DNA of 58,640 nt from a virus. Taxonomy: Duplodnaviria; Caudoviricetes. Made by a program: the position numbers and the translations under genes. How positions within the stretch are numbered: position 1 is the first letter of the stretch; every line of letters begins with the position of its first letter. The notes beneath the pieces are model-generated. The model had not been told where the DNA came from. It ran no database searches and worked only from the letters and a program-made list of their open reading frames with translations. Shown one piece after another: positions 8,921-52,097 of this stretch. Location: positions 1 to 58,640 of IMG/VR virus record IMGVR_UViG_3300040971_000021. The stretch is one strand, 5' to 3'.

Positions 8921-9004
8921 TGGAGTCATAGCCGGAATCGAACCGGCACAACGGGCAGCCCACGCCGCCACTCTTATTGCTGTCACCAGACATCCGGCAT
9001 AAAC
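8921..9004 (-). ncRNA. tRNA-like RNA / degenerate tRNA lacking an anticodon arm
   Basis: Perfect T-arm GCCGG-TTCGATT-CCGGC and TCCA 3' end; no canonical anticodon arm. Confidence 0.35.
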
Positions 9005-9039
9005 AATATTACCACAAAAACGCCGAAATAAAAAGGAGA

Positions 9040-12400: not shown

Positions 12401-15400
12401 CCTTCTCTGATACGGCTGAAAGGCTTATATCGTCTTCGGTATTTTGTGCTATATTATCGTCGCTATTCCACGTTGAAGCAACTGAGTTGCCTTGGTTCAT
12501 GTGGTCAAAACCATTTTCCGCTGTTTCCGTCTGCGGGATTCTGTCGGGGGTGGCTGAGAGGTTGTGATCTTCCTCAAGGGATTGATTCATCTGATTAGCC
12601 ATCTTCTTTGCCTGAAATGCCAGCTCCGTGCCGGATTTGCTTGAAAGCTCAAGAAAATGCTTGAGGTCTCCCGACAATGACCCCATGTAATCTACGAATG
12701 AAGAGGCGTCTATATTTTCACCTTTCAGCACCTCTTTAATGTCCGCAAGGTATCGGTCTTCAAGCTCGGAGTGGGTCAGGTCCAATTTGTCGGCCTCACT
12801 GTCAGCCATATCGTCTTGGCTCCAATTTATCCATGTCTCAGCCAATGATGCGCCAGAGCCGGTACGGGAAAGTCCCGCTATCCTGTCGGTCATGCGCCGC
12901 CTGAATATGAATTGAGCCTTCCGTATTACCTCTTTTCTCTCGACCTGTTTCTGCTTCTCAAGGAATAGGTCAGATTTGTCTATCAATGAGCCTTTACTTT
13001 TTTCAGCTGAGAGATTGGCCGCACCATTATAATCCACACTCACCTCATGCTGCCCGATATGCACCACCGTCGAGATAACATCACTCAACATATTCCGGTC
13101 GGTAATACCAAGGGCCTTGCCAACGAGGGCAACAAGCCTATCCCACAGCGTCTTGATTGTGCTGTCTGTTGACGTGGCAGGGATGGATTTCAGTAACTCC
13201 TGAAATGACTTGGATGAAAACGCCTGTGCAAGAAACTCTTCCGGTGAAGATAGTGCGTAAGCGGTCGCCATTTCCTCGTCGGTGAATCCTTTGCCCTGCG
13301 CCTTGTCGAGAAACTTCTTCGACTGCCCCTCTGACTCCTTAGCAAGTGTCAATAATTTGGCATCCACCTTTCGGCCTACCTGCTTCATCATCTGCTTGAC
13401 TTGCAGCCTCAGGATCGGGCTGGCCTTCATCTCCTTGACTGTCACGGCATGGACTGCCTCATGGAGCATGGTGTTGTATGCCAGGGCGTCGGCGTCTTTC
13501 AGGGCAATAGTAATACCATTGCTTACATGGTACGATGAATGGGCCACCTTCGCAAACGACACCGGAGTGTTCAGCAACTTCTCGTCGCTGATCGTCTTTC
13601 TTAACAGCTTTGCAAGTGCGGATGTTGCCGCATTGCCGTTGCTGATTGCCGCCGTCAACAGCTGGTAGGCGTTGGTTATCCCGGCTACGTCTTCATGGGT
13701 CTTTTTGCTGATTGTGTCGGTTATGGTGGGGGAGTCAATTGAATAAAAAGACTTATTTGGATAAGCAATGGATGCTGATTTTTTTATATCTTCTGCTGTT
13801 TTACTTTCAAACGGAATACGCCATCCGATTCCACCAGCACCGCCAGTACTAACATTATTTCCACCCCAATTATCCCCGTCCATCCCATTATTTTTGACGT
13901 ACCAGATATCCTTGTCGCCGATAACAAACCATTCTCCGCCGCCGTAGATATTCTGCGTGTCGGCATATCGCTCTCCATCTGGGGTATTAGAACCTTCTGG
14001 GTGCTCCCCATCCTTCTTTATTTTATCCGCGATTACGCTTAATGCCGCCTTGGCTCTTTTAACTTCATCTCTGGCCTGTTCGGTATCCCGCAATGTTGCG
14101 GATTCCTCGTCAGTCGATTCTCTGGCTATGGCAGAGAAAACATGGCCCCGATCATCGCCAACGCCAAAAGACATACCATCATCACTGTAATACCTCTTTG
14201 ACGCTGATAGTATCGTAACGTATCGAGGTCCAGTATCACGAGGATTGCGGATTGTTTGACCTGCCCTCATTTCTCGATATCCGTAGCCCTCTCCGCCGCT
14301 AATACGGAATTGTTCGCCAGGTAGAACGCCAGCACCGGACGGTCCTTCTGCCCCATACTGGCGCAAGGACTCAGGGATGTCTCCCGTCACGTACCACTTC
14401 TTTCGGTCTCCATCAAATTTCGCACCGGCTCGTTTCGCTTTGATGCGGTCGTCGTATGGAACGCTTAAATAAGTCTTGTCCCGCTTTGCCTCTTCCGCTA
14501 CTTCCTCTTGTTTAGCTGCACTTTCCACCTCTTTTCTATTTTTGACGGCCTGAATAGCCGCGTCCATTCGTGATTTCAGCTCTGGATGTTTCTCTATCCC
14601 AAGTGTCTTTAGTTTATCAACCCCGTTTTGATATATATATTCAGGGGCCTTTTCCTCAACATATTCAAGCCATTTCTTTAATTCAGGCACAGATGAAAGA
14701 TCTCTTGATTTAGCCGTTTGCTCTCCAGTAAGAGGATAAATCGTTGTCGTTGATCCGTACTTGTTTGACTGAATATCAACATTCGCGGGGGTGCTGTGTA
14801 TCTCCCCTACCGCCCAACCATCGCTTGTTTTGTTGATTTCAACCTTTACCGGGTAACTCTTTCCCTCCCTTGTCGCCTCAAACCATTTACGTCCTTTCTT
14901 GGTGATGGTAAGAGTTTCTTGTGATAATCTTCCTGGCGGTAAAGGCTCAATCTTCTCCGCCACCTTCTCAGGTATTTCCTTTTCGGAAATAGCTTCAGTT
15001 GTCAAGGATTCCTCTACAACTGCCTTCAGCTTTATTGAGTGAGTGACGTTGTTTCTGTCAACAAGATTGATAGAATAAGATTGAAAAGCCATACCCTCCA
15101 GCGATTTATCGCCCACATATTTCTTCCCTTCACCCTTTTTCACATAGGCGATTGTAGCATGAGGCTGATAGTCAGTGAAGGTTTCGCCGGGAACATCTAC
15201 AAGATCACCTACTTTCTTATTGGCAGAACGAAGCGATTTGCTTTTTATCTCGACCTTGACCACATCATATTTGTCATTCTCAAAGATAGAAACTTCACCA
15301 AATTTCGCGTCTATCGGGGGAAGAGAAGAAAGGTCTTTCAGCAACGCCGGATCGTCAATCGCAAGGCCGTATCTTACAGTTATATGTGGCTCTGTTTCTC

Positions 15401-18400
15401 TTCCGTAAGAATCATCTTTTGGGTCGATGTAAAGCTCTTTGTCGGGTATTGATTTTCCAAACTCAATCAACTTTGTTGCGGCTGGCCCTGTTACATTTAT
15501 CTGAGTGTTGCTGAAATCGTGAACCTGCTTTTCCTTTGCATCACCATTAGTTAAGGGAACGGACGTTTCGTTTACCTGAATGCCTAACTGTCCGGCAGAT
15601 TCGGATGGTTTAGACGTTGTTTTAGACATTGCATCCATCTTCTCCGCTGCGGCCCGCATGTGATCGGCGGCGGTCATCTCGGATATGGGCTTTTGCTCTG
15701 ATTCTGTGGCAAGTTTTAATGGTGTTTTGGTAGCTTGCTGTTTTTTCGACCCCGAAAATCTCTGGTTCGCTTCATACATCAATGCAACGAATCCGCGCTC
15801 TGTCCCTTGAAGATCATCCACATTGCTTGGCATATCCAGAATATCGGCCACATCAAGCCATGACTCGGCTATTGTCTTCTCTCCAGTAGTCGAGTTGTAG
15901 GATGTAACGCTTCCCGGCTCCATCCCGGTTGATGCTTTGAGTTGGCCGATGAATAATTGTTGGACGCCTTCGGGAAGGTTGAAGTATGTTTTTTCCCAAA
16001 ACTCTTTTGTGGCCGCTTGCGGAGAGATCCCTTGCTCGTCCATGTCATCAAGCGCACCCTGTCCCTGAGATTCGAAGGCAAGTCTTTTGGCTATTCGGTC
16101 GATGAATGAACCTAATTTTTTGCCCGTATCGTCAATTTTTGGAGTAGCAGATTTGTCACTCGAAGCCGGGGCCACGGTATCCGCTGTTGATTGTTGCGTA
16201 AAAGACTCCGCGCCGGGAGAGGCCATCTTCCCGGCGTTTCCAAGTTGCGCGTCATCTTCCGAGATAGGCGTGGGGAGTGCTTTGTTAAGTTTCTCTTCTC
16301 TCTTCGCCTGCAACTTCTCCCTAAGTGTCATCTTCGGCACTTCCGGGGTATATTCCTCGTATTGCGCTGCCGCTTCCTGCTTTGCGGCCTTGTTCCTGGT
16401 AATCCTCTCCAATAAGGCTGAACGCTTGCCGGTCTTGGCTATGTCTTGAGCCTGAACCGTCTCGGATGTGTCGGCAAAGTCGTTCATCAACTCGTCGGTT
16501 ACTGCCTGTCTGTCTTCGGTCTGCTGGAAGTCCTTTGTCGGTGCGTAGATGGTTCCGGCTGATGACCTGGCAGGGTCGATCAAGCTGGCCTTGCGGCGGT
16601 CTTCAATCAACTTACCGTCTGTCTCCACGTCTTGTGAACTCTTTGCTTTATTTTCCTTCTTTAACTCCATCTCAAGTGCATTCTGATACTCATGCAATGA
16701 CGCATACTTCCCGCCGCTTACGGGGATGTCGCTTATGGAAGAGAATCTTCCTCCTCCTCCAAGCATAGCAGATAACGACACACTAAACGACGTAGCATAC
16801 GGAGACTTAGCGGCCTCTTCAGGTGAAGGCCACTTATCCATATCACTGGCTATGTCTTCATCTGATTTTCTGAATAATTCATGAACATTTTTATTATAAA
16901 GAGGGTCGCTATCTCGTTGCTTTTCCTTTGCGACCTGGATGTCATATCTCCCCATTTCCTCAAGAATGCTTGTTTGTGTCGCAGTGGGCAACGAGTTCCA
17001 TTGTTTTGTAGTGTACGAGCCTAGCGGGTGGTTTATGTTGCCATCAGGCTGGACTATGGGTACAGGTTGAGCAGTTCGTACTGACTCTGACGCCTGCGAG
17101 CTAACGTCTCCCTCTCTTCCCACTTGCATAATTCTACCCGCATTTGGCGTGACACTTCCCGCCATTCCTCTGGGGTCAACTTCTCCTCCTGGTATTTGGG
17201 ATGGAATATCTGTTGCAACATTTTCCACAGCCGACTTATTAATTTCACTCTGTCCTCCTTGTGCTTGATTGTTATTCTGCATCTCCTCAAAGGATTTCTT
17301 CCTGCCAGCGGCAAAGGCCATGTCCTCTACTGCACGGCTGGCCTCTTCGTCGTAGTTCTTCCACGGGTCTTGTCTGGTTGCAGTTTCAGTAATACTATTT
17401 GCCTTGGATAATGCGTTGCTGATTACTCCGGTTGGCTTTGATGTTGGCTTGAATGCCTGTTCGATGTCACGGACTGCCGGGTCTTGAGGCAGTGCTGATA
17501 TTTCAGGGTTGGCTTCCTGTTGATTTAGCCGGTTCATCGTCTGAGATCCAGATTCCATGCCGCCTCCTTGGAACGCACCTACTATAAGACCCTGACCTGC
17601 CGATTCTGCCGCACCTTCGTCCCACGGCTTGCCCATAGCAAGGTTTGTAAATACCTGTTCCTGATACGACTGAGGCATTTCCTCAAGCGCACCTTCTTTG
17701 AACATGGTTTTTGCAATCTCTTTGCCTGCTTGTAGAATGGTAGTTCTCTCTCCACTCCGGCCAGCAATGGCAAGCGCTGCCTCTGCATCATGAAATCCTG
17801 GAACCTTGGAAGACAGAACACCTATTGCAGCCGTGCCAAGTCCTGCACCGATAGCAGGAAGAACTGTTTTACCCCACCCTCTTCCTTCCTGCCTACCCTG
17901 TTCCTGTATCAAACCTGTGGTGGTTGCGCCCTCTGCTCCTGCTCCTGCCGCCGTGATGGCCGCCATTGTTGCAGGATTAGCAAAGAACTTGCTGGAGAAT
18001 GCCGCCGCCTCTGCTGTACCTTCGGCGATTCCAGCCTTGGCAAGCGCAGAACTAAGCATCTTGGTTGCGACTCCCCGTGCAACTCCTACCCCACCAATGG
18101 ACAATGGTGCCGATTCAACGATTGAACCGAAAGCAGTTGATGGATTTTGAGCAAGCGCCTTTACAGTTGGAATAAAGCCCTTGGCGTCAGCTACATTCTG
18201 ATTCGCCTCCTGCCGTTGAGTGCTGTAACCTGAATCAAGAATTTTCTTGGTAGCTGATGGGTCATAACCGAATTTAGCCAAGCCCTTACCTGCCATGTTA
18301 CCTGTTGCGATATTTGCCAGCCCTACAGCCGATTCACCTAGACCGACTACGCCCTTTGTGGCATCTATGGCCGTGTCTTTGAGAAAACCGCCCACTCCCC

Positions 18401-18503
18401 TGCTTTCATCCTGAGTAGAACCTTCGTCGAACTGGTCGAAGAAGTTCTTCTTTTTTGGTTCAGGGGTTGTTTGGTCGAATTGGTCGAAGAAATTTGCTGC
18501 CAT
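9435..18503 (-). CDS. giant polyvalent virion/ejection protein (Acb1-like 2H phosphoesterase, DUF5710-like, zincin-like, C-terminal LPD38-like)
   Basis: 3022 aa; FFDQFD N-terminal repeats; EPHITV and QPHATI motifs; YLSVPY..AK..GAKFD...K.WY; MLHEAVH; IPMPYGYN and ENKNFMG C-terminal motifs. Confidence 0.8.
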   Translation of the reverse strand: MAANFFDQFDQTTPEPKKKNFFDQFDEGSTQDESRGVGGFLKDTAIDATKGVVGLGESAVGLANIATGNMAGKGLAKFGYDPSATKKILDSGYSTQRQEANQNVADAKGFIPTVKALAQNPSTAFGSIVESAPLSIGGVGVARGVATKMLSSALAKAGIAEGTAEAAAFSSKFFANPATMAAITAAGAGAEGATTTGLIQEQGRQEGRGWGKTVLPAIGAGLGTAAIGVLSSKVPGFHDAEAALAIAGRSGERTTILQAGKEIAKTMFKEGALEEMPQSYQEQVFTNLAMGKPWDEGAAESAGQGLIVGAFQGGGMESGSQTMNRLNQQEANPEISALPQDPAVRDIEQAFKPTSKPTGVISNALSKANSITETATRQDPWKNYDEEASRAVEDMAFAAGRKKSFEEMQNNNQAQGGQSEINKSAVENVATDIPSQIPGGEVDPRGMAGSVTPNAGRIMQVGREGDVSSQASESVRTAQPVPIVQPDGNINHPLGSYTTKQWNSLPTATQTSILEEMGRYDIQVAKEKQRDSDPLYNKNVHELFRKSDEDIASDMDKWPSPEEAAKSPYATSFSVSLSAMLGGGGRFSSISDIPVSGGKYASLHEYQNALEMELKKENKAKSSQDVETDGKLIEDRRKASLIDPARSSAGTIYAPTKDFQQTEDRQAVTDELMNDFADTSETVQAQDIAKTGKRSALLERITRNKAAKQEAAAQYEEYTPEVPKMTLREKLQAKREEKLNKALPTPISEDDAQLGNAGKMASPGAESFTQQSTADTVAPASSDKSATPKIDDTGKKLGSFIDRIAKRLAFESQGQGALDDMDEQGISPQAATKEFWEKTYFNLPEGVQQLFIGQLKASTGMEPGSVTSYNSTTGEKTIAESWLDVADILDMPSNVDDLQGTERGFVALMYEANQRFSGSKKQQATKTPLKLATESEQKPISEMTAADHMRAAAEKMDAMSKTTSKPSESAGQLGIQVNETSVPLTNGDAKEKQVHDFSNTQINVTGPAATKLIEFGKSIPDKELYIDPKDDSYGRETEPHITVRYGLAIDDPALLKDLSSLPPIDAKFGEVSIFENDKYDVVKVEIKSKSLRSANKKVGDLVDVPGETFTDYQPHATIAYVKKGEGKKYVGDKSLEGMAFQSYSINLVDRNNVTHSIKLKAVVEESLTTEAISEKEIPEKVAEKIEPLPPGRLSQETLTITKKGRKWFEATREGKSYPVKVEINKTSDGWAVGEIHSTPANVDIQSNKYGSTTTIYPLTGEQTAKSRDLSSVPELKKWLEYVEEKAPEYIYQNGVDKLKTLGIEKHPELKSRMDAAIQAVKNRKEVESAAKQEEVAEEAKRDKTYLSVPYDDRIKAKRAGAKFDGDRKKWYVTGDIPESLRQYGAEGPSGAGVLPGEQFRISGGEGYGYREMRAGQTIRNPRDTGPRYVTILSASKRYYSDDGMSFGVGDDRGHVFSAIARESTDEESATLRDTEQARDEVKRAKAALSVIADKIKKDGEHPEGSNTPDGERYADTQNIYGGGEWFVIGDKDIWYVKNNGMDGDNWGGNNVSTGGAGGIGWRIPFESKTAEDIKKSASIAYPNKSFYSIDSPTITDTISKKTHEDVAGITNAYQLLTAAISNGNAATSALAKLLRKTISDEKLLNTPVSFAKVAHSSYHVSNGITIALKDADALAYNTMLHEAVHAVTVKEMKASPILRLQVKQMMKQVGRKVDAKLLTLAKESEGQSKKFLDKAQGKGFTDEEMATAYALSSPEEFLAQAFSSKSFQELLKSIPATSTDSTIKTLWDRLVALVGKALGITDRNMLSDVISTVVHIGQHEVSVDYNGAANLSAEKSKGSLIDKSDLFLEKQKQVERKEVIRKAQFIFRRRMTDRIAGLSRTGSGASLAETWINWSQDDMADSEADKLDLTHSELEDRYLADIKEVLKGENIDASSFVDYMGSLSGDLKHFLELSSKSGTELAFQAKKMANQMNQSLEEDHNLSATPDRIPQTETAENGFDHMNQGNSVASTWNSDDNIAQNTEDDISLSAVSEKVETIRRDIVDRITASSQRWKERFENFVYNWLNTNDPRKRIYAKADKKTVKNDMVTVEELRGKKTADEVQRTRETVVEPMLKELAQAKLTVSDLEEYGHGLHASERNQRMREVNAKRKLDEFLKHMTDTEAEKWKQAMSDLRSKTVMEDDLDSKDTQQGYLELIDEVIADIDSREARIAERQKELDAREFTEEEIAKGTPERKQGEIDNALDRIEATQKLTDKWSEESPRLSGMTDEEGQAIIDKWQKDPRFKSMQSAKKKLDLINRMGVEALHDSGELTDDEYNGIVTGYKHYVPLQREGFLDTTPTVGRITGPTGKPLKVAMGSMREVVNIVAHSVQNYETAVNRKHKAAAGKALYQFVLDNPDSGMTIEKVAKQPTHDKEGNVVMYPTMQEPPNGVFIKVQVEKTVRGEKKMVSEKKLIVFDTDQRTPQGRTVARFLDSIKGQDAQLGPLMAKLSQVNRYLAMINTMLSPEFVLSNFVRDFQTAFIHLSDEKIRENKGLRTKIAKDIFPAIKGIFKAESGNDSTDMGKWYRDFSKNGGKIGWMQGYEKIEDLAKELEYTMKLYGEGHTALKKLDALKKLVSRSNTAVENGVRLATYKNLVESGVSKSEAASVASKLTVDFTQKGKQGPALNALFMFANAGIQGNLRMIQAIGKSREVRKIVGGVVAGGFALQLLALASGGDDDSGEPYILGIADFIRERNMIFMIPGTKGKYISIPMPYGYNGFNNIGAEAANMLYMAMTGRKYNTAGGAMRVVTTFANAFNPLASGTILQTLSPTIADPIVMAAENKNFMGNDLMPNQNPFGPEKPDSERYWKNVSPTSKIVTSMVNRMTGGDRFKGGLVDMSPETLDMLYDTVTGSTGKFVSNVLHIPVRAATGELEVNNVPFARRFTGSWNERAISNRYYEAVKEWDVAKQRYDGAETPFERARVSASPEFKLYRRSKLAEKQLTNLLKSLKLAEARKDKERTETIKNRITSVQMNFLNRMEN

Positions 18504-18597
18504 TTATCCACCTGGTAGATTTTAAAAAGACATCATTTGTTTGAAATTTATCTATTTATTATAGCAAATTTACATCTAAATAACAAGGATATGCATC

Positions 18598-20085
18598 TTA
18601 ATATCCAGCAGGAAGAAAGCCATACTTCGCCTTAAATTCATCTCTCATATTTGGGTTTTTCTTCAAAGCATCAATGGCCGCTTGTGGCGCTTGTGGTTTA
18701 TCCTGTCCACCAATAGCAAACGACTCTCTAGGGTTATTCTTGTTGTAGGCTATTGGTGTCTTTATCTCTTCCCCATCTATGGTATTGACACTTTCAGTAA
18801 CACCATAGCTGTCTCTTGGTACAACCTGACCGCCAAGGGCTGCAATTCTGTTCTGTTGCCTGGTTATTTCGTCACTGCTCGCACCTCTTCCATAGAGTGA
18901 CGCAAGCCGTTCCTGTTCGATTTTAAGGTTATTGGCATTACTGAAGTTGTCCATTGCCATCTGTCCTTCTTCCTGTAAGTTCGCAGTCTGCGCCTGTCGG
19001 TACTGAAGATCGGAAAGCAACTGCTGGCGTGATATTTCGTTACGGTCATTCTGGCTGGCATAGTCCATGACTTGACCTTGTGATGTGATTGCGGCGCTCC
19101 GTGCTGAATCAATGGCGCCAATGTCTTGACCTCTGGCGGTAAGTCCGTTGCGGCCTGCCTCAAGACCTACCCTGTCTGTTTCGTTATTCATCCGTGATAT
19201 GGCTCGTTGCTCTTTCATATCAGCCACGCGGCTTAACTCTCCAGCCAAGGTATTGGAGTGGGGAGGAGCAACATATGAACTATCACTATGGACATTCATT
19301 TTAGCCATAGCTTCTCTTTCGTACCTAGCCAACCTTTCTAATTGCGCCAGCTTCTCAGGATGCCTCTCTTTCAAGGCACTCTCGGCAAACCGTCCTCTTT
19401 CGTCCAACGACATTGATTTATCAAACTGCACATCAAGATTGCCTAACTGTTGTCGTCCAGTATTCCCTATGATTGACTTTCTTGCTACCTGGCCTACGCT
19501 TTGTTGCTGGCCTGGCCGAGAAATACCTTGTGTGCTTTGTACCTTTCCGCCGTTGTTATTCCAAACTGTTTGACTTGGCTGTGTAGATCCCGTCAACTGT
19601 GTCCTATCCGCCAATGGGGAGTTAGATGCCATATTCCCTCCTGATGTACCGTTGGCACTGTGGCTAGTCCAAAGACCTCCGCTATCACCTGCGGATGGTT
19701 GCAGGCTGGCTATATCTTCCTGTGATAGTACGTTGAATCCTTTTCCGGAAAAGTCAGGTCTTGTCACAGGGTTAAACTTGGGGGGATTAACCCCAATATT
19801 ACCAGGAGCAAAAGAAGAAACACTAGATTTTCTACCCTCAACGCCTCTATTGATGGCTGCACTATTGGCATTCATGTCACCTTTTATGACGTTGGATATT
19901 CCACGAACGCCCATACTTACAGGGTTATATCTGGCAACTGTCCCTAATGCTTGGGCTGGTATTGTCGCCATAGTTCCTACAGCTTGCGCCGCTTTTTCAG
20001 CCACTCCACCCTTCTTCATGCCACCGTTCTTGTAATTCTTCTCATCGTACAGACTGTAAACCGCCATGGTATATTCTCCTTTCAA
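18598..20085 (-). CDS. putative internal virion / DNA ejection protein
   Basis: Q/G/S-rich, LTARGQDI repeat-type motif, C-terminal AIDALKKNP...FKAKYG; adjacent to giant protein. Confidence 0.65.
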   Translation of the reverse strand: MKGEYTMAVYSLYDEKNYKNGGMKKGGVAEKAAQAVGTMATIPAQALGTVARYNPVSMGVRGISNVIKGDMNANSAAINRGVEGRKSSVSSFAPGNIGVNPPKFNPVTRPDFSGKGFNVLSQEDIASLQPSAGDSGGLWTSHSANGTSGGNMASNSPLADRTQLTGSTQPSQTVWNNNGGKVQSTQGISRPGQQQSVGQVARKSIIGNTGRQQLGNLDVQFDKSMSLDERGRFAESALKERHPEKLAQLERLARYEREAMAKMNVHSDSSYVAPPHSNTLAGELSRVADMKEQRAISRMNNETDRVGLEAGRNGLTARGQDIGAIDSARSAAITSQGQVMDYASQNDRNEISRQQLLSDLQYRQAQTANLQEEGQMAMDNFSNANNLKIEQERLASLYGRGASSDEITRQQNRIAALGGQVVPRDSYGVTESVNTIDGEEIKTPIAYNKNNPRESFAIGGQDKPQAPQAAIDALKKNPNMRDEFKAKYGFLPAGY

Positions 20086-38732: not shown

Positions 38733-39002
38733 TTATTGTGTTGCTCTAACAAATTTAGGGTGCAAAATATCCCTATAGTTGGCATGTGTCGCTGCTTTGT
38801 CGCCGCTACCTTGCCAATTCAGCGCATCATACTTTCCTGTGAATACGTGCCATGCTATGCGGCATCGCCAACTAAAGTAACGCAATCCAGAGAACGCACA
38901 TGGTCTGGCTGACCTCCATTTACCACAAGTGACCTCTTCAGACACATGCCACAATGCTATTTCAGATGCTGTATAAACTTGCGGGACCCTAATATCCATC
39001 AT
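38733..39002 (-). CDS. conserved phage hypothetical protein
   Basis: W..ARP...R.R.AW.VFTGK.DAL.W motif. Confidence 0.7.
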   Translation of the reverse strand: MMDIRVPQVYTASEIALWHVSEEVTCGKWRSARPCAFSGLRYFSWRCRIAWHVFTGKYDALNWQGSGDKAATHANYRDILHPKFVRATQ

Positions 39003-39231
39003 TTCCTCTCCATATCTAGCAAACGTGTAACAATAGCAGTAGTATCAACAGCTCCATGGCAAGCATCACGGCATTCGTTATAGCGACACGGTCAGCACTT
39101 CCATAATTTTACTAACTGAATAATCTTATCACATCTGCTTGCGGTTTGCAAATATAAACACGCTATATTTGGTGGTTGTGTTGTTTTTTATCGGAGGATA
39201 TTAAAAGAAAGGAAAAAAGGTAAAATAATCT

Positions 39232-39268
39232 TTGACAATACTTTTGATTTGGCTTATATTAAAAGCAT
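39232..39268 (+). promoter_or_regulatory. strong early sigma70 promoter with overlapping inverted repeat (putative operator)
   Basis: TTGACA(39232)-17 bp-TATATT(39255), A-rich upstream element; ATACTTTTGAT/ATTAAAAGCAT 9/11 inverted repeat. Confidence 0.75.
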
Positions 39269-39312
39269 AGAGGATGGATTGAAGCAAATAAACAATTAAC
39301 GGAGGAAATAAA

Positions 39313-39594
39313 ATGAGAACATTATCAGAGATCAGAGGCGCCGTTGAGGAGTTAGGACAGGCAACACTGGCATTTTTGCCAGAGGATTGTTTGTATCAGG
39401 AGGAACAACGGCTTGAAAGAGTCGTCTCTGAGCTGAAACAGGCAGTGGGAGATCCCTGCCTCGTTTTTAACAACGCGGACCAACTCGCCGACCAAAAGGC
39501 GAAAACCCGGAGGCGGATAGAAGACCGCCTCCGTAGATGCGACGACGAAGTTTGGATCGTCGCAAAACTGCTAGGGATAGACATAGAGTCGTAA
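39313..39594 (+). CDS. early 93-aa protein, copy 1
   Basis: GGAGG RBS; near-identical to 40550-40831; stop lies in a 10-nt partial repeat GTCGTAATCC. Confidence 0.8.
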   Translation: MRTLSEIRGAVEELGQATLAFLPEDCLYQEEQRLERVVSELKQAVGDPCLVFNNADQLADQKAKTRRRIEDRLRRCDDEVWIVAKLLGIDIES

Positions 39595-39597
39595 TCC

Positions 39598-39781
39598 GTC
39601 GTAATCCCTTCTGGAGTCAGGTCAGGTCAGTCTCCAAATAGATGTCAGCCGAGAGATCTTCAAAGTCTTTTGCTGTCGTAATCCCTTCTGGAGTCAGGTC
39701 AGGTCAGTCTAGGTATAAGGGATATTGATTGGTCGCAGGTAGGTGCGTCGTAATCCCTTCTGGAGTCAGGTCAGGTCAGTC
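39598..39781 (-). CRISPR. mini CRISPR array: 3 identical 35-bp repeats, 2 spacers (42 and 37 bp), no cas genes
   Basis: GTCGTAATCCCTTCTGGAGTCAGGTCAGGTCAGTC at 39598, 39675 and 39747; the reverse complement ends AAGGGATTACGAC like type III repeats; strand inferred from that end. Confidence 0.85.
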
Positions 39782-39853
39782 GGGACACCGACCATTTCGC
39801 TGTCACTCGCGCCAGGAGTGACAGCAACAAGGCACAAACAAAGGAGCAACACC

Positions 39854-40162
39854 ATGGAAATTACAAAAGAGACCGGAAGTTACAATGAGCGCAGATACGG
39901 AAAACCTTGGATAGCGGTTATTGATTACACCAATAACCGCAAGGGGGATTTTAGATTCGGCGATTGGCAGGGACGGCCAGGGTCGGAAGGCGAATTATAT
40001 ATCACCTGTGAAATTGGTGATATTATTGCCACTGGTCAAAAGGATTTCCGCAAGCCTAGAAACTCCGCCCCCACTTATTATCAGGTTGATAGTAACGGCC
40101 AACTTGATGAAATTGGGGATAACCCTGTTGAGGCATACAAAAGATCACAAGGGGGTGATTAA
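39854..40162 (+). CDS. early hypothetical protein (102 aa)
   Basis: AAGGAG RBS; SYNERRYGKPWIA...GQKDFRK; followed by GC-rich GAAA hairpin. Confidence 0.8.
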   Translation: MEITKETGSYNERRYGKPWIAVIDYTNNRKGDFRFGDWQGRPGSEGELYITCEIGDIIATGQKDFRKPRNSAPTYYQVDSNGQLDEIGDNPVEAYKRSQGGD

Positions 40163-40234
40163 ATAATATAAACCACAGGGGGGGCTGGAAACAGCCCCTT
40201 AACTGGGATTGAGCAGTTAAATTCAACGGAGGAA

Positions 40235-40477
40235 ATGGAAATGAAATTTTTATTTACGGTAAACCAATATGACAAAGACGGTGATTGTATTGATACTTGC
40301 ATCTTTGGGCATTTTAATGACAGTACCATATTGCGCTTTGGAAAATTGACGGAGCGCATCCTTGCAACAGCCGGAGACAACGTACCATCAGAAATAGAAT
40401 ATCTGGATAGGAATGGGCAAGTAGTCGGGTTTTGGGCTTATGGATGTTTTCACCCAGACTATCCATACCAAGGCTAA
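40235..40477 (+). CDS. early small acidic protein (80 aa)
   Basis: GGAGG RBS. Confidence 0.7.
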   Translation: MEMKFLFTVNQYDKDGDCIDTCIFGHFNDSTILRFGKLTERILATAGDNVPSEIEYLDRNGQVVGFWAYGCFHPDYPYQG

Positions 40478-40549
40478 CCACCCCACAACCGGGCAGCGGC
40501 CCATAAGGGCAAATAAAACCAAGGCCGGAAACGGCAAAGGACGGATAAA

Positions 40550-40831
40550 ATGAGAACATTATCAGAGATCAGGAGCGCAGTTGAGGAGTTACGACAGGCA
40601 ACAGTGGCATTTTTGCCAGAGGATTGTTTGTTTGAGGAGGAACAACGGCTTGAAAGAGTCGTCTCTGAGCTGTATCAGGCAGTGGGAGATCCCTGCCTCG
40701 TTTTTAACAACGGGGACCAACTCGCCGACCAAAAGGCGAAAACCCGCAGACGGATAGAAGACCGCCTCCGTAGATGCGACGACGAAGTTTGGATCGTCGC
40801 AAAACTGCTAGGGATAGACATAGAGTCGTAA
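40550..40831 (+). CDS. early 93-aa protein, copy 2
   Basis: Paralogue of 39313-39594 with a few substitutions; stop TAA lies inside the solitary repeat. Confidence 0.8.
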   Translation: MRTLSEIRSAVEELRQATVAFLPEDCLFEEEQRLERVVSELYQAVGDPCLVFNNGDQLADQKAKTRRRIEDRLRRCDDEVWIVAKLLGIDIES

Positions 40832-40859
40832 TCCCTTCTGGAGTCAGGTCAGGTCAGTC
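40825..40859 (-). repeat. solitary CRISPR repeat
   Basis: Exact fourth copy of the 35-bp repeat, 1043 bp after the array. Confidence 0.9.
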
Positions 40860-40887
40860 GAATATACCAACAACCAACGAGGACACA

Positions 40888-41037
40888 ATGAAAAACCCAA
40901 AACTTAAAACGATCAACTACCTGATCCCTGTAGAATTATGGGCTGCGGTAAAAATTAAAGCCATTAACGACGGCCTGTCACTCAAAAATGCTGTTATTGT
41001 TGCCTTCACCGATTACATAAAAAAGGTGAAGAAGTGA
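40888..41037 (+). CDS. ribbon-helix-helix DNA-binding protein (Arc-like)
   Basis: KTINYLIPVELWAAVKIKAINDGLSLKNAVIVAFTDYI pattern; GAGG RBS. Confidence 0.7.
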   Translation: MKNPKLKTINYLIPVELWAAVKIKAINDGLSLKNAVIVAFTDYIKKVKK

Positions 41038-41140
41038 GATGCTTGAAAACCGGACGCCCAACTTTCCCCGGCCTCTGCGCTGTGTGCTCTCGCAAGTGCC
41101 GGAAATCAGGTAAATCCAAACCAATAAAAGGAGCTAAAAA

Positions 41141-41275
41141 ATGAATGAGTGCGATGAAAATCTTAACTGGAAAGACAAGTTAATCCTTTCCGCAGCTGCC
41201 CTGTGGTGCCTTATGTTTATCGGCCTGTCCATCATAGGAGCTGTGCAAGCGGTTAAATTTACAGGGTGGATGTGA
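41141..41275 (+). CDS. small membrane protein (44 aa)
   Basis: AAGGAG RBS, single TM. Confidence 0.5.
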   Translation: MNECDENLNWKDKLILSAAALWCLMFIGLSIIGAVQAVKFTGWM

Positions 41276-44367: not shown

Positions 44368-45105
44368 ATGAAATGGGACGATGACGATAAAAACCTACTA
44401 ACCGTAACTTGGTTTAGCGCTGGGGTATCAAGTGCCGTTGCCACCAAGCTGATGATTGATAGTATTGATAAGATCATTTACACCCACATCGACAACCAGC
44501 ACGCCGATTCGATGCGATTTGTAAAAGATTGCGAAGGATGGTTCGGCAAGGAAGTTGAAATATTACAATCATCGTTCAAAACAGTTGAGGAAGTTTGCTT
44601 GAAGCGTAAATTTGTAAATAGTCCTTATGGGGCAGCATGCACAGGTTGGTTAAAAAGAAAAGTTAGAATTGACTGGGAACAACAACACGAAGAGTATCAC
44701 CTCCGCTATGTTTGGGGAATGGATAGCAAGGAGAAGATAAGGGCTGATAATCTAAATATATCCATGCCCGCGTTTGAACATATATTCCCCCTCATTGATC
44801 GGAATATGACAAAGGCTGCAGCTCATAAGATGCTGAAGGCCAGTAAAATTAAACGTCCTGCAATGTACGATCTCGGATATGCAAATAACAACTGTCTAGG
44901 ATGCGTTAAAGGAGGGAAGGGTTATTGGAATCATATTAGGGTTGACTTCCCAGAGGTGTTTAAGGCAATGGCGATCATGGAACGTAAGGTCGGTCATTCG
45001 TGTATCAATGGGACATTCCTTGATGAGCTTGACCCTGAAAGCGGAAGATTTGGCAAGCCAGTTGTAGAGGACTGCGGAATATTGTGCGAGGTAATGGGGA
45101 TATGA
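44368..45105 (+). CDS. PAPS-reductase-like (PP-loop) protein
   Basis: WFSAGVSSA, GAACT..LK and MYDLGY.NNNC.GCVKGG.GYW motifs. Confidence 0.8.
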   Translation: MKWDDDDKNLLTVTWFSAGVSSAVATKLMIDSIDKIIYTHIDNQHADSMRFVKDCEGWFGKEVEILQSSFKTVEEVCLKRKFVNSPYGAACTGWLKRKVRIDWEQQHEEYHLRYVWGMDSKEKIRADNLNISMPAFEHIFPLIDRNMTKAAAHKMLKASKIKRPAMYDLGYANNNCLGCVKGGKGYWNHIRVDFPEVFKAMAIMERKVGHSCINGTFLDELDPESGRFGKPVVEDCGILCEVMGI

Positions 45106-49859: not shown

Positions 49860-52097
49860 TTGATGAGACAGCAGAAACTTTTCGACGGAATTGAAGATAA
49901 TCTTCATAAAGATGGCCAATATCTTCCTTTTCTTTCTGTCATGGTAAATGGAAAAGGGGTTGTTGACTGTGATACCGTTAAGGGTTGTTCTGCTGGTATG
50001 GCTAAATATCCAAATGGAGGTTGTTATGGTGAGTGCTATGCATATAAAACAGCAAACCGTTACGGGATAGATTTCAAAATAAGTGTTTCAAGAAAATTGT
50101 TAAATTCTCGTTTCAATAGTTGCTTCGATGTGATAAAGAATCATCATGCTTCATGGTATCGGGTTGGAACTGCTGGTGACCCTTCACACGATTGGGACCA
50201 TACAATTTCAGTTTGTGAAGCATTGCAATACACTGAAAAAGTGCCGGTTATCATAACAAAGCACTGGAAGTCATTATCAGACAGCCACCTAAAAAGGCTT
50301 AAATCATTGTCTGCTGTGATAAACACATCAACAAGCGGAATGGACACAGAAGGGGAAATAAGACACCGTGTTGGACAAATAACACGAATAAAAGAGGCTG
50401 GCATTACGAGCGTGTGCCGGGTTGTTACTTGTGAATATGGCGAATCTGGATGGGCTAGAAAATGCCAAGAAAAACAGGATTATCTCTTATCGTTTGATTA
50501 TGTTATTGATAATCCACTGAGAGCAAGCAAATCAAATAAGCACGTTATAGCTGGTGATATTATTTTAACCAGGCAAGACAGGTCGATTGGTGGTGGTAAA
50601 TACGTGTCATTGCATCGACCTGACATTTATCTTGGGGTGTGTGAAAACTGCCCTGACCAATGTGGTGTAAAGGATTCACCACGAAAACAGAAAATAATGG
50701 GGAAAAAAATGGTACAAATGGATTTGTTCAAGAGAAATATTGAGTTTTTGTATGTTGAAACTGTAATCGGTTCAGGATATGAGCAGGACGTTGCAGCTTT
50801 GGCAATTGAGGATAAAATCGCATACCGGGCAGCCAGGAAGAATATGCAAATCCATTCAGCCATTATATTGAAAATTAACGATGTTGTTTGTGGATTTTTC
50901 ACCTTCCAAAACAACCACGAGGCTAAAGAGTTTTGTTTGCTTCAATCGACAATCAAAGCAGACAGTTTTGATTTTAAAATATACGATGATATGGTAATGG
51001 CGGCTATTGCCCAAAACACAAATAACTACCCAGCTATCATCACAACAGATCCAAAGAGCAAATTTGAGACCCCAAAACGGTTCAAAAGCCTGGGGTTCAA
51101 AACCTATCTAACCATGTCAAACTATGAATATATGGTTTATGGAGATGAAAAAGACGTGCGGTTCAAGCTTCTAGCCCATATAACCATGACGAATGTTTGG
51201 AACTCACTCAAAGGGCCGTGGTTGCAACTAAAAAAAGAATGGAACAGACAAATTGAAGAGGCTGGGGAAAAGTATAATATCCCTAACCCTAAATTTGCCT
51301 CTCGTGAAGGTTGCTGGCAAGGTGCCAGTGGTTTCTCAAATGTGGTATTGTCAACTCGTTCAATGGAAGATGGCAAGGTTAAAACCAACGCTACAAAATC
51401 ACATAACGGCAACGCGTCTGTTCTCGATCCGGTTGCTTGTGAGGTTATATTGAGGTTTTTCATGCCAACATCTGGGAGAAGAGTTTACAATCCTTTTGGC
51501 GGTGGGGTACAAATGGGATTTGTAGCTGGCTCGTGTGGCTTTGATTATATATCAAGCGAGATACGTCAAAATCAGTGTGATACGAACAATGCCATCTGCC
51601 AGGATCTGAACAGTGCAAAATGGATCAAAAGTGACAGCTCAACCTATACGCCAGAAGAAAGGCCAGACTTGGTTTTTAGTTGCCCACCTTATTACAAGGT
51701 TGAAAAATATGTTGATTATGATGGAGTTATTCCAGAAGGTGAGATTAACAACCTTGATACATATGAAAAATTCAGGGATACCCTTTTTGCTGGATACGAC
51801 AAAGCTATTGAGGCTTTAAATGATAACTGTTTCTTTGTGGTTATGACCGGAGATAGCAGGGACAAGGATGGATCGTATCATTGTTCAGAGTCAGAAACAG
51901 AGTTGTTTTTTAAGAGCCGTGGCCTTTCTGTTTATAACAAAATAATCTACCTTGAGTGTGAATTTACACGGCTGGCACAGGCAAAGAAAACACTCAATTA
52001 TCGGAAATTCCCGAAACGTGAGCAGAAGATAATTGTAGCATACAAAGGTGATATAAAGAAGATCAAAGACCTTTATCCAACAGTTGGGAGGCTGTAA
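49860..52097 (+). CDS. multidomain DNA-modification enzyme (radical-SAM-like + GNAT-like + amino-methyltransferase)
   Basis: KGC-x11-CYGECYA and GTAGDP; central CGFFTF...SLGF; NPFGGG motif I and FSCPPY motif IV. Confidence 0.7.
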   Translation: MMRQQKLFDGIEDNLHKDGQYLPFLSVMVNGKGVVDCDTVKGCSAGMAKYPNGGCYGECYAYKTANRYGIDFKISVSRKLLNSRFNSCFDVIKNHHASWYRVGTAGDPSHDWDHTISVCEALQYTEKVPVIITKHWKSLSDSHLKRLKSLSAVINTSTSGMDTEGEIRHRVGQITRIKEAGITSVCRVVTCEYGESGWARKCQEKQDYLLSFDYVIDNPLRASKSNKHVIAGDIILTRQDRSIGGGKYVSLHRPDIYLGVCENCPDQCGVKDSPRKQKIMGKKMVQMDLFKRNIEFLYVETVIGSGYEQDVAALAIEDKIAYRAARKNMQIHSAIILKINDVVCGFFTFQNNHEAKEFCLLQSTIKADSFDFKIYDDMVMAAIAQNTNNYPAIITTDPKSKFETPKRFKSLGFKTYLTMSNYEYMVYGDEKDVRFKLLAHITMTNVWNSLKGPWLQLKKEWNRQIEEAGEKYNIPNPKFASREGCWQGASGFSNVVLSTRSMEDGKVKTNATKSHNGNASVLDPVACEVILRFFMPTSGRRVYNPFGGGVQMGFVAGSCGFDYISSEIRQNQCDTNNAICQDLNSAKWIKSDSSTYTPEERPDLVFSCPPYYKVEKYVDYDGVIPEGEINNLDTYEKFRDTLFAGYDKAIEALNDNCFFVVMTGDSRDKDGSYHCSESETELFFKSRGLSVYNKIIYLECEFTRLAQAKKTLNYRKFPKREQKIIVAYKGDIKKIKDLYPTVGRL

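What the first reader, a model, noticed from the sequence alone, without database searches (positions are those of the whole stretch)
39598..39781. Cas-less phage mini CRISPR array oriented antisense to the early transcript
Seen: three identical 35-bp repeats with spacers TCCAAATAGATGTCAGCCGAGAGATCTTCAAAGTCTTTTGCT (42 bp) and TAGGTATAAGGGATATTGATTGGTCGCAGGTAGGTGC (37 bp). On the minus strand the repeat reads GACTGACCTGACCTGACTCCAGAAGGGATTACGAC, with a type III-like 8-nt handle ATTACGAC and an unusual tandem CTGAC 5' part. No cas genes are present, and I saw no self-match of the spacers by eye. Inference: it borrows host Cas6/Csm-Cmr to target competing phages or host transcripts. The crRNA strand is opposite to the strong early promoter, so a separate antisense transcript would be needed.
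Basis: partly seen in the sequence, partly recalled or inferred. Interest (0 to 1): 0.8.

Follow-up and report, generated by a model that had tools for sequence, protein, structure and literature searches.

The report
Phage-borne type III CRISPR mini-array
A phage of sulfur-cycling Desulfocapsa-type bacteria carries, without any cas genes, exact copies of its host's CRISPR repeat (a two-spacer mini-array plus a lone repeat) joined onto a cut-short phage gene, a known kind of phage trick for meddling with host CRISPR immunity.

Summary
The 35-nt repeat occurs three times in tandem, with spacers of 42 and 37 nt. It occurs a fourth time, alone, at 40825-40859, and never by chance.

The repeat is a real CRISPR repeat. 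It is 35/35 identical to all 37 repeats of a Desulfocapsa MAG array. That array sits behind cas6, csm6, cas10/csm1, csm2-5, card1, cas1 and a promoter-bearing leader, so it is type III-A. The same host array flanks turn up in the runs that hold the phage.

The phage has no cas genes.

New here: both copies of a duplicated 93-aa gene lose homology to a 124-aa relative at the first base of repeat sequence. The repeats were therefore recombined into a phage gene. A sigma-70-like minus-strand promoter ends 1 nt before the solitary repeat. The spacer 2 unitig has host-like depth.

No target of either spacer was found anywhere.

Best reading: captured host repeat-spacer units that feed host Cas6/Csm as guides or decoys. 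Rivals are anti-tag self-mimicry, a neutral scar, and a partly chimeric assembly.

This scan has noted similar phage mini-arrays and solitary repeats on other DNA. It is a new member of a known kind.

The parts
39232..39260 (+). Sigma-70-like early promoter (TTGACA-17-TATATT) that drives the plus-strand operon running through all four repeats
   Evidence: (11 of 12 consensus matches). Prediction only.
39313..39594 (+). ORF93 copy 1 (93 aa). It is the N-terminal 92 residues of a 124-aa protein family; its last codon and stop (TCG TAA) are made of repeat sequence.
   Evidence: tblastn homology to P0095 ends at 39588.
39588..39597 (+). 10-nt partial repeat (GTCGTAATCC), a tandem duplicate of the first 10 nt of repeat 1. 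It supplies the ORF93 stop codon and the 8-nt anti-tag GTCGTAAT.
39598..39632 (-). CRISPR repeat R1. On the minus (sense) strand it reads GACTGACCTGACCTGACTCCAGAAGGGATTACGAC.
39633..39674 (-). Spacer 1 (42 nt); no target found
39675..39709 (-). CRISPR repeat R2
39710..39746 (-). Spacer 2 (37 nt); no target found. Its unitig has host-like depth in 2 of 4 runs.
39747..39781 (-). CRISPR repeat R3. A phage unitig at phage depth starts inside it at 39755 and runs on to 40664.
39792..39832 (.). Inverted repeat (hairpin without a U-tract) between R3 and the next gene; role unknown
39854..40162 (+). 102-aa gene of a widespread phage family of unknown function, lying between the array and the solitary repeat
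40235..40477 (+). 80-aa gene of unknown function
40550..40831 (+). ORF93 copy 2 (86 of 93 residues identical to copy 1). Its stop codon lies inside the solitary repeat.
   Evidence: Homology to P0095 ends at 40825.
40825..40859 (-). Solitary CRISPR repeat R4, identical to R1-R3
40861..40888 (-). Candidate sigma-70-like minus-strand promoter (TTGTGT-16-TATATT). Its -10 box ends 1 nt before the sense 5' end of R4. It overlaps the RBS and start of the Arc-like gene.
   Evidence: It is one of only two hits in 39-42 kb at 0.30 hits per kb per strand. Prediction only.
40888..41037 (+). 49-aa Arc-like ribbon-helix-helix repressor gene directly after R4
   Evidence: (phrog_6506, E 6.3e-5).

Best explanation
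These are genuine CRISPR repeat-spacer units of the host's type III-A (Csm) array. A podophage of Desulfocapsa-type bacteria (Desulfobulbaceae) carries them without cas genes. There is a two-spacer mini-array and, 1 kb downstream, a solitary repeat unit. They entered the phage by recombination with a host array. In both copies of a duplicated early gene, the phage sequence switches to repeat sequence at one exact base, and the C-terminal 42 residues seen in a relative are cut off. The crRNA-sense strand is the window's minus strand, antisense to the early operon. Inferred mechanism: a minus-strand transcript starts at the promoter-like element that abuts the solitary repeat. No predicted terminator lies on the way, so it could read on into the array. 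Host Cas6 would cut it 8 nt from each repeat's 3' end and the products would be loaded into host Csm. The two spacers would then act as guides against unknown competing elements. The solitary repeat and the last array repeat would give crRNA-like RNAs that occupy Cas6/Csm, in the manner of a Racr decoy. The only complement of those RNAs is the phage's own ORF93 mRNA, which carries a perfect anti-tag and so cannot trigger Cas10. Shown: repeat identity, host system type, sense strand, absence of cas genes, the truncation junction, and co-occurrence with the host. Inferred: transcription, processing, loading and any effect on immunity.
For: The repeat is exact four times and absent from shuffles. 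A 19-mer of it hit 13 loci among 185,579 species genomes. Seven of the 13 are multi-copy arrays in Desulfocapsa, Desulfobulbaceae and Desulfobacteraceae MAGs, or in bins of the same study. An eighth, L008, is a 101-repeat array of a variant repeat. L013 carries 37 of 37 repeats identical to the phage 35-mer, with spacers of 34-42 nt, a range that includes the phage's 37 and 42. On that same 22,238-nt contig lie cas6, csm6, a CARF-adenosine deaminase, cas10/csm1, csm2-5, csx20, card1, cas1 and a small reverse-strand ORF in the cas2 position (not searched against families), followed by an AT-rich leader and the array; cas2 itself was confirmed only in the sister locus L010. For the sense strand: the array lies downstream of the cas genes in the same relative orientation in 3 of 3 loci. 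The leader is conserved between L013 and L010 and has TTGAAA-18-TATATT pointing into the array. Repeat variants keep the end CAGAAGGGATTACGAC and vary at the other end. For the host link: in 4 of 4 runs holding the phage (one study), the repeat has a depth of 8,000-19,800 against phage flanks at 4-40. Loose ends next to the repeat equal both flanks of the L013 array, in X3 and X4 on a 4,041-nt contig at depth 120-141. Major capsid homologues at 57-58% identity lie in syntenic prophages in 3 of 187 genomes of the host family, against at most 50% in 402 cultured-phage records. For absence of cas genes: 17 proteins of the host cas locus gave only chance hits in the window. For capture by recombination: ORF93 has a single relative cluster (P0095, 124 aa, and P0096). 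Homology runs from residue 1 to 92 and stops at 39588 and 40825, the first base of repeat sequence. The 42-aa Cys-rich tail is encoded nowhere in the window. The repeat plus the 84 nt before it are identical in both copies, while the preceding 206 nt differ at 12 sites. For the minus-strand promoter: the relaxed scan gave 35 hits in 58.6 kb over both strands. Only two lie in 39-42 kb, and one ends 1 nt before sense R4. [quoted passage not shown] Solitary repeat units downstream of promoters act as RNA anti-CRISPRs and were found for all CRISPR types except VI (PMC10651486, passages and section 9).
Against: No target was found for either spacer. The searches were: the window itself; 5 host genomes; 187 genomes of the host family at up to 3 mismatches; 38 whole viral records of relatives; INPHARED phages and PLSDB plasmids, which gave chance-level hits only; exact partial-spacer sub-stretches in IMG/VR; and a spacer 2 core in JGI metagenome contigs. 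The tandem array has no host-like leader and no promoter-like element next to R3. Sense transcription must run head-on against a strong early promoter. The minus-strand promoter is only a consensus match with a weak -35 box (3 of 6) in an AT-rich intergenic stretch. None of 296 host spacers from the fetched arrays matches the phage; the longest alignment was 19 nt. None of 37 IMG/VR relatives of the neighbouring gene has such a repeat, so there is no comparative support for selection. Spacer 2's host-like depth means its content may simply mirror the host array, which would make it redundant as a weapon. No RNA run was available.
Confidence: 0.42

Rival explanations
1. Anti-tag self-mimicry. 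A host spacer once matched the 3' part of the ORF93-family gene. Spacer-protospacer recombination then placed the repeat directly behind the protospacer. On the abundant early mRNA the target is now followed by GUCGUAAU, the exact complement of the crRNA 5' tag AUUACGAC. Csm would therefore treat it as 'self' and Cas10 would not be activated. Under this reading the spacers came along as passengers, and the functional strand is the plus strand.
For: The phage-to-repeat switch sits inside a gene at one exact base in both copies, and the gene's tail is deleted, not displaced. The repeats lie inside the early operon in the orientation that puts the anti-tag on the mRNA. The copy 1 junction keeps GTCGTAAT directly after the ORF even though a 10-nt duplication separates it from R1. 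The junction block of 84 nt plus the repeat is identical in both copies while the rest has diverged. Spacer 2 seems shared with the host. Lack of tag/anti-tag complementarity is required to license type III interference, and up to five spacer mismatches are tolerated (PMC6024849, passage read). Point mutations are therefore poor escapes.
Against: No host spacer matching ORF93 was found among 296 spacers. The 200-nt unitig ending at 39597 has only phage-like depth, 41. The co-resident host therefore does not carry such a spacer at high frequency now. Protection would cover only that one protospacer. This reading does not explain the promoter-like element abutting R4. The identical block (84 nt) is longer than any spacer (34-42 nt). 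Polarity rests on a single relative cluster. I found no paper describing this escape route in search, judged from titles and abstracts of the listings; that is weak evidence of absence.
Confidence: 0.17
2. A neutral recombination scar. The phage encodes RecT and a RecE-like exonuclease, which may have exchanged DNA with the host array through the 35-bp repeats or a spacer. The captured units are recent passengers with no function.
For: RecT and a RecE-like exonuclease, RusA and NinB are encoded in the phage. Repeat identity with the host is perfect, which suggests a recent event. No spacer targets, no leader and no relatives with the element were found. Spacer 2 has host-like depth.
Against: Two separate sites carry the repeat at the same gene junction. 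The repeats and the adjacent 84 nt are kept identical while the rest of the duplicated unit has 12 differences in 206 nt. A promoter-like element is placed exactly at R4. Both ORF93 proteins are on record on 3 contigs each, which suggests the duplicated gene, though not necessarily the repeats, recurs in other assemblies.
Confidence: 0.17
3. A partly chimeric contig. The phage truly carries single repeats at both sites, and the assembler threaded two host spacers (S1, S2) between phage flanks through the shared repeat.
For: The spacer 2 unitig has depths of 192.7 (X1) and 337.1 (X2). These track the estimated host depth (repeat depth divided by about 67, giving about 135 and 298) and not the phage depth of 32-40 and 4-7 (the arithmetic is mine). 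No listed record holds S1, and none of the 7 X3 records holds S1 or S2. At k=31 nothing can link across a 35-nt repeat.
Against: The ORF93-10 nt-R1 junction and the R3-to-flank unitig are phage sequence. Assemblers that use k greater than 35 need real reads across each repeat with both of its flanks; this is inference, because the pipeline is unknown to me. Shared spacers are also expected if the phage captured them from this host. The solitary repeat, the truncation junctions and the host link stand either way.
Confidence: 0.12
4. The repeat acts as an attachment site. The phage integrates into the host CRISPR array at a repeat, and imprecise excision picked up repeat-spacer units, as shown for Streptococcus phage PhiAP1.1.
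For: In the PhiAP1.1 work, aberrant excision puts one, two or more spacer-repeat units next to attP, and these can be transduced (10.1101/2020.10.09.333658; abstract and sections 5 and 10 read). Spacer 2 appears shared with the host. Relatives of this phage are prophages in the host family.
Against: No tyrosine or serine recombinase is present in the 94%-complete record. The repeats lie in the middle of the early operon, fused to a gene, and at two sites. The two related prophages have no array or repeat within about 50 kb. None of the fetched host arrays is interrupted by phage DNA.
Confidence: 0.05

Closest known systems
Virus-borne cas-less mini-CRISPR arrays (Saccharolobus viruses SPV1 and SPV2, Medvedeva et al. 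2019, PMC6858448; also the phage and prophage mini-arrays cited there)
   Same: There are 1-2 spacers and no cas genes. The repeats match the host's array. The element lies between genes of a virus. Like the phage cases mentioned in that paper's Discussion, it lacks a host-like leader, for which origin by recombination with host arrays was suggested.
   Different: In SPV1 and SPV2 the arrays have promoter-bearing leaders and the spacers hit closely related viruses. Here no target was found, the host system is bacterial type III-A, the array is antisense inside an early operon, and it is fused to a truncated gene.
Solitary repeat units and RNA anti-CRISPRs (Racr; Camara-Wilpert et al. 2023, PMC10651486)
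   Same: A lone copy of the host's repeat lies in a phage, directly downstream of a predicted promoter on the sense strand. The host carries the matching CRISPR subtype. It sits among small early genes next to a small repressor gene.
   Different: The Racrs tested experimentally in the parts I read are I-F, I-C, I-E and V-A, all with hairpin repeats. This repeat is unstructured and type III-A. It overlaps a gene's stop codon. It co-occurs with a mini-array 1 kb away, so it is not strictly solitary. No acr gene is recognisable nearby.
Phage integration into CRISPR repeats with spacer pick-up (PhiAP1.1, Varble et al., 10.1101/2020.10.09.333658)
   Same: A phage genome carries repeat-spacer units that also exist in the host array.
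   Different: No integrase was found. The host system is type III-A, not II-A. There are full 35-nt repeats at two sites inside an operon, not an 8-bp attP core.
Type III self versus non-self discrimination by tag/anti-tag pairing (as summarised in PMC6024849, section 3.3)
   Same: The plus-strand mRNA carries the exact complement of the 8-nt crRNA tag directly 3' of ORF93 in both copies.
   Different: The known role is to protect the host's own array from antisense transcripts. Use by a phage as an escape has not been shown and was not found in my literature searches.

Membership tests
CRISPR array of the Desulfocapsa/Desulfobulbaceae type III-A repeat family | Direct repeats of constant length separated by unique spacers of similar length | tested here: met
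   Three 35-nt repeats with spacers of 42 and 37 nt. Host spacers measure 34-42 nt.
CRISPR array of the Desulfocapsa/Desulfobulbaceae type III-A repeat family | Repeat sequence belongs to a family found in cas-associated arrays | tested here: met
   35/35 identity to 37 of 37 repeats of L013, which lies on the same contig as cas6, csm6, cas10, csm2-5, card1 and cas1; cas2 was confirmed by family search only in sister locus L010.
CRISPR array of the Desulfocapsa/Desulfobulbaceae type III-A repeat family | Leader with promoter next to the first repeat | tested here: not met
   The host leader is conserved in L013 and L010. The phage sequence to the right of R3 shows no likeness to it by eye and has no promoter-like site.
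CRISPR array of the Desulfocapsa/Desulfobulbaceae type III-A repeat family | Transcription and Cas6 processing into crRNAs with an 8-nt 5' tag | not testable with these tools
   No RNA holder was listed. Only DNA contigs could be laid.
Virus-borne cas-less mini-CRISPR array | 1-2 spacers, host-type repeats and no cas genes in the virus | tested here: met
   Caveat: linkage of the two spacers to the phage is not verified by reads.
Virus-borne cas-less mini-CRISPR array | Spacers match competing or related mobile elements but not the carrier | tested here: inconclusive
   No self-match. No target in any collection searched. Phages of this host group are barely sampled.
Solitary repeat unit / Racr | Lone repeat matching a known CRISPR repeat, intergenic, in a mobile element whose host has that subtype | tested here: inconclusive
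   R4 is identical to the host repeat and the host has type III-A. However, it overlaps a stop codon and a mini-array lies 1 kb away.
Solitary repeat unit / Racr | Promoter within 250 bp upstream on the sense strand | tested here: met
   TTGTGT-16-TATATT at 40888-40861 ends 1 nt before sense R4. Consensus match only.
Solitary repeat unit / Racr | Inhibits the cognate CRISPR-Cas system | not testable with these tools
   This needs an interference assay.
Phage attP within a CRISPR repeat (PhiAP1.1-like) | Phage integrase and prophage copies inserted in arrays | tested here: not met
   No PF00589 or PF00239 match in the 94%-complete record. The related prophages are not in arrays.

The most novel reading that the evidence does not exclude
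The repeats are the footprint of an escape route from type III CRISPR immunity that has not been described. Recombination between a host spacer and its protospacer in an early phage gene placed the CRISPR repeat directly behind the target. The phage mRNA now carries a perfect anti-tag and is read as 'self', so Cas10 signalling is not triggered. Both copies of the targeted gene carry the same junction. The minus-strand repeat RNAs could additionally give guides whose only target is that anti-tag-protected mRNA.
Probability: 0.15. Interest if true: 0.8.

Novelty: new member of a known kind. Interest (0 to 1): 0.42.

Why it matters
The finding ties an uncultured 58.6-kb podophage to a specific host lineage, Desulfocapsa-type sulfur bacteria, and to that host's type III-A system with three cyclic-oligoadenylate effectors. 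Phage-borne mini-arrays and solitary repeats are known, but in the parts of PMC10651486 that I read the experimental work covered only I-F, I-C, I-E and V-A. Here both forms sit in one phage. The exact recombination junction is preserved inside a truncated gene, and the donor array is present in the same samples. That makes it a natural snapshot of how phages pick up CRISPR parts. It is also a concrete substrate for testing whether type III systems can be decoyed by repeat RNAs or evaded by an acquired anti-tag.

Tried and rejected
Phage-specific promoter, iteron or terminator repeats. Rejected because the repeat is identical to a cas-associated host array. It also has no notable fold on either strand, with z-scores of 0.18 and -0.52.

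Rfam. No CRISPR-DR or other family matched in 39000-41200 at E up to 10; there were 3 chance-level hits.

Close relatives of the phage. None were found by megablast of 39000-41200 against phages. The exact 35-mer and the 19-mer were absent from IMG/VR; the window's own record may be left out there. ORF93 in IMG/VR gave 1 locus (L005) sharing only a 24-residue motif and no such repeat.

The 102-aa neighbour gene. It has 92 homologues and 37 IMG/VR loci. None of the 37 has the repeat (up to 9 substitutions allowed) or a protospacer. The five closest share only that gene.

Spacer targets. All searches were negative.

Host spacers against the phage. Of 296 spacers none matched; the longest alignment was 19 nt. 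G001 has no further array.

Metagenome scan for the right flank of R3. It returned 0; near-identical records may be left out, so this says nothing.

RNA evidence. No RNA holder was listed.

Protein Atlas. No usable hit for ORF93 or the 102-aa protein. Pfam and PHROGs gave nothing for ORF93. Pfam gave nothing above cut-off for P0095.

Single 19-mer hits in L011, L014 and L015 do not extend beyond about 22 nt, and I take them as chance. L006, L016 and L017 are partial or remnant repeats in MAGs and show no likeness to the phage.

My first idea was that repeat-derived end k-mers inflate the spacer 2 unitig depth. I dropped it after estimating that this adds only about 7x in X2, against the 337 observed (arithmetic mine).

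Structure prediction, complex prediction and fold search were not used. ORF93 has only one relative cluster, so a model would be poor.

Supplementary tables of PMC10651486 list viral solitary repeats from IMG/VR. I did not open them because supplements are closed, so this very repeat may already be listed there.
Full report
WHAT IS THERE. The window is a single IMG/VR virus record of 58,640 bp, estimated 94% complete. It is a podovirus-type phage.
- It has a P22-like portal, a Phage_capsid_3 major capsid and a large terminase. Late genes are on the minus strand from 1 to about 38 kb.
- An early and replication module is on the plus strand from about 39.3 kb. It encodes RusA, NinB, RecT, a RecE-like exonuclease, a replication O-like protein and a primase-helicase.
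- A near-consensus sigma-70-type promoter (TTGACA-17-TATATT, 39232-39260) heads the plus-strand module.
- The order behind that promoter is: ORF93 (39313-39594), a 10-nt partial repeat, R1-S1-R2-S2-R3 (39598-39781), a hairpin, a 102-aa gene, an 80-aa gene, a second ORF93 (40550-40831), a solitary repeat R4 (40825-40859), and a 49-aa Arc-like repressor gene.
- All four repeats are identical. Of 100 shuffles, 0 gave any match.

IT IS A REAL CRISPR REPEAT, AND THE HOST SYSTEM IS TYPE III-A. A scan of one genome per species (185,579 species) with the first 19 nt of the repeat found 13 loci.
- Seven of the 13 hold 2 to 108 spaced copies. They come from Desulfocapsa, Desulfobulbaceae and Desulfobacteraceae MAGs. 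Two more are array-only contigs binned as Paludibacter and Rhodocyclaceae in the same 'ppb' series as a Desulfocapsa bin; I take these two as mis-binned, which is inference.
- One further locus, L008, is a 101-repeat array of a variant repeat.
- Three single hits do not extend and look like chance. Two are 30-nt remnants.
- L013 (Desulfocapsa sp. N3_15 MAG) has 37 of 37 repeats identical to the phage's 35-mer, with 36 spacers of 34-42 nt.
- On the same 22,238-nt contig lie cas6 (PF10040), csm6, a CARF-adenosine deaminase, cas10/csm1 (597 bits against a cut-off of 170), csm2, csm3, csm4, csm5, csx20, card1 and cas1, all reading towards the array, plus a small reverse-strand ORF in the cas2 position that I did not search against families.
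- The sister locus L010 has csx20, a TM1812-type CARF protein, cas1 and cas2 before its array.

SENSE STRAND.
- In 3 of 3 loci where both could be seen (G001:C123, G002:C188, G004:C47) the array lies downstream of the cas genes. Read in their direction, the repeat is G(A/C)CTGACC...CAGAAGGGATTACGAC.
- The flank nearest the cas genes is AT-rich. It is conserved between L013 and L010 and partly in G004, and it holds TTGAAA-18-TATATT pointing into the array.
- Repeat variants keep the ...CAGAAGGGATTACGAC end and vary at the other end. This is what is expected if that end is the Cas6 site and the 8-nt handle; that expectation is general knowledge, recalled.
The strong early transcript carries the antisense of all four repeats.

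THE HOST IS IN THE SAME SAMPLES. Four runs from one study (at most two samples, coded X1-X4) hold the stretch as DNA contigs. I laid them on 39000-41200.
- Phage flanks have depths of 28-40 (X1, X3, X4) and 4-7 (X2). The 35-mer repeat has depths of 8,000-19,800.
- The sequences that continue beyond the repeat in those runs equal both flanks of the L013 array. In X3 and X4 these continuations lie on a 4,041-nt contig at depth 120-141.
- A bacterium with the L013-type array is thus present and is several-fold more abundant than the phage.
- Major capsid homologues at 57-58% identity, within syntenic structural modules, lie in chromosomes of 3 of 187 genomes of that host family. The best of 402 cultured-phage records reaches 50%.
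- The phage has no homologue of 17 proteins of the host cas locus.

THE REPEATS ARE FUSED TO A TRUNCATED GENE.
- ORF93 has no family hit.
- Among 1.84 billion representatives it has one relative, P0095 (124 aa, E 1.8e-10). P0095's cluster holds one more member, P0096.
- The alignment runs from residue 1 to E92. The relative then continues for 42 Cys-rich residues, whereas ORF93 ends with S-stop encoded by repeat bases.
- At the DNA level, homology stops at 39588 and 40825, the first base of repeat sequence in each copy. The missing tail is encoded nowhere in the window.
- The two ORF93 units differ at 12 of 206 positions up to 39513. The last 84 nt plus the 35-nt repeat are identical. At the upstream rate about 7 differences would be expected in those 119 nt (my arithmetic).
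- I read this as capture of host repeat(-spacer) units by recombination at a point inside a phage gene. Later copying or homogenisation of the junction block would account for the identity.
- This fits the suggestion that leaderless phage mini-arrays arise by recombination with host arrays (PMC6858448, Discussion passage). The phage's own RecT/RecE-like system could have done it, which is inference.
- The polarity (long form ancestral) rests on one relative cluster.

IS THE MINI-ARRAY REALLY IN THE PHAGE?
- The ORF93-10 nt-R1 junction cannot come from a host array. A phage-depth unitig starts inside R3 and runs into the 102-aa gene. At least one repeat at that site, and R4, are therefore phage sequence.
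- The spacer 2 unitig (39681-39771) has depths of 192.7 in X1 and 337.1 in X2. The ratio of repeat depth to host contig depth is about 67 in X3 and X4. Applying that ratio, host single-copy depth would be about 135 in X1 and 298 in X2.
- Spacer 2 thus fits 'one copy in the host plus one in the phage' far better than 'phage only' (my arithmetic).
- No listed record carries spacer 1, and X3 (all 7 records listed) has neither spacer.
- With k=31 nothing links across a 35-nt repeat. I therefore keep a 12% chance that S1-R2-S2 was threaded in by the assembler.
- If the array is real, a shared spacer is what capture from this host predicts.
- Both ORF93 proteins are on record on 3 contigs, the longest of 62,404 nt.

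FUNCTION. No spacer target was found. The negative searches were:
- the window itself;
- 5 host genomes;
- 187 genomes of the host family at up to 3 mismatches;
- 38 whole viral records;
- two related prophage regions;
- INPHARED and PLSDB;
- exact partial-spacer sub-stretches in IMG/VR;
- a spacer 2 core in JGI metagenome contigs.

None of 296 host spacers hits the phage. None of 37 IMG/VR relatives of the neighbouring gene carries such a repeat.

For a sense transcript there is one lead.
- A relaxed scan (TTGnnn, 16-18 nt, then at least 5 of 6 of TATAAT) gave 35 hits in 58.6 kb on both strands.
- Only two lie in 39-42 kb: the early promoter, and a minus-strand TTGTGT-16-TATATT at 40888-40861 whose -10 box ends 1 nt before the sense start of R4.
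- That is the architecture described for solitary repeat units and Racrs (PMC10651486).
- No terminator-like site lies on the minus strand between R4 and the array, so one transcript could cover both.
- Type III crRNAs are trimmed at the 3' end and need no downstream repeat (recalled knowledge). R4 and R1 would therefore yield crRNA-like RNAs whose guide is antisense to ORF93 mRNA.
- That mRNA carries GUCGUAAU, the exact anti-tag, directly behind the paired region. Tag/anti-tag pairing blocks type III interference (PMC6024849), so such RNAs would be harmless to the phage.

My best reading (0.42) is hijacking of host Cas6/Csm by minus-strand repeat RNAs, as guides and/or decoys. The rivals are:
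- the anti-tag on the plus-strand mRNA is itself the point, an escape by self-mimicry (0.17);
- a neutral recombination scar (0.17);
- a partly chimeric contig (0.12);
- an attachment site with spacer pick-up, as in PhiAP1.1 (0.05). No integrase was found, and the comparison rests on the preprint's abstract and sections 5 and 10.

COMPARISON AND NOVELTY. Cas-less viral mini-arrays, phage solitary repeats and RNA anti-CRISPRs, and spacer pick-up by phages are all in print. The scan's own notes list several phage solitary repeats and mini-arrays on other DNA, including a type III one. This is therefore a new member of a known kind. Its particular features are:
- a type III-A repeat from an uncultured sulfur bacterium;
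- a mini-array and a solitary repeat together in one phage;
- the exact junction inside a truncated, duplicated gene;
- the antisense position inside the early operon;
- the donor host in the same samples.

The anti-tag escape idea is the boldest reading that the data allow. I found no paper describing it in two searches, judged from titles and abstracts of the listings and from one passage.

PAPERS SEEN.
- PMC10651486: passages by term search, and section 9 in full.
- PMC6858448: passages including the abstract and Discussion.
- 10.1101/2020.10.09.333658: abstract and sections 5 and 10.
- PMC6024849: two passages.
- All other titles: search listings only.
- Recalled without a call: the 3'-end trimming of type III crRNAs, and the general rule that the handle end of a repeat is its conserved end.

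Noticed in passing
window 9435-18503 (-), residues 1030-1124 = about 15132-15416: The 3,022-aa virion-type 'large polyvalent protein' (LPD38, DUF5710) contains a 2H phosphoesterase / 2'-5' RNA ligase-superfamily segment (PF13563, 28.6 bits against a cut-off of 27). The host's type III-A locus has three cyclic-oligoadenylate-dependent effectors (Csm6, Card1, CARF-adenosine deaminase), so an injected cyclic-nucleotide-degrading domain would fit. This segment is also the part conserved in the two related prophages.
   Followed up: partly
L031 (G001:C123) 13205-15364 and 2204-3340, 15177-16490: The host type III-A locus combines a CARF-adenosine deaminase (Cad1-like), Card1 and a Csm6-type ring nuclease family protein, plus Csx20. 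That is an unusually rich effector set in one locus.
   Followed up: no
L005 4772-6058 (IMG/VR contig): Two clusters of about a dozen TGGCTCGCA-containing units at 36-37-nt spacing, in an unrelated phage. They look like an iteron-type origin.
   Followed up: no
window 39854-40162 (+): The 102-aa protein belongs to a widespread phage family with invariant RYGKPWIA and GQKDFRKPRNSAP motifs (92 homologues). It has no Pfam or PHROG family and no known function.
   Followed up: partly
L013 leader, about 3062-3400, and L010 6098-6398: The CRISPR leader holds two copies of a GGTCTGCG(G/A)A motif conserved in three loci. This may be a binding site for an integration host factor or a regulator.
   Followed up: no
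window 39567-39610 and 40804-40837: The end of ORF93 (AGGGAT) and the start of the repeat (ATCCCT) form a 6-bp inverted repeat across the junction. The minus-strand RNA downstream of R4 folds better than shuffles (z -2.5; 1 of 200 shuffles folded as well).
   Followed up: partly
window 44368-45105 (+) and 49860-52097 (+): A PAPS-reductase-like gene (phrog_424) and a 745-aa protein with a C-terminal DNA methyltransferase part lie in the early module. They are candidate DNA-modification or anti-restriction functions.
   Followed up: no
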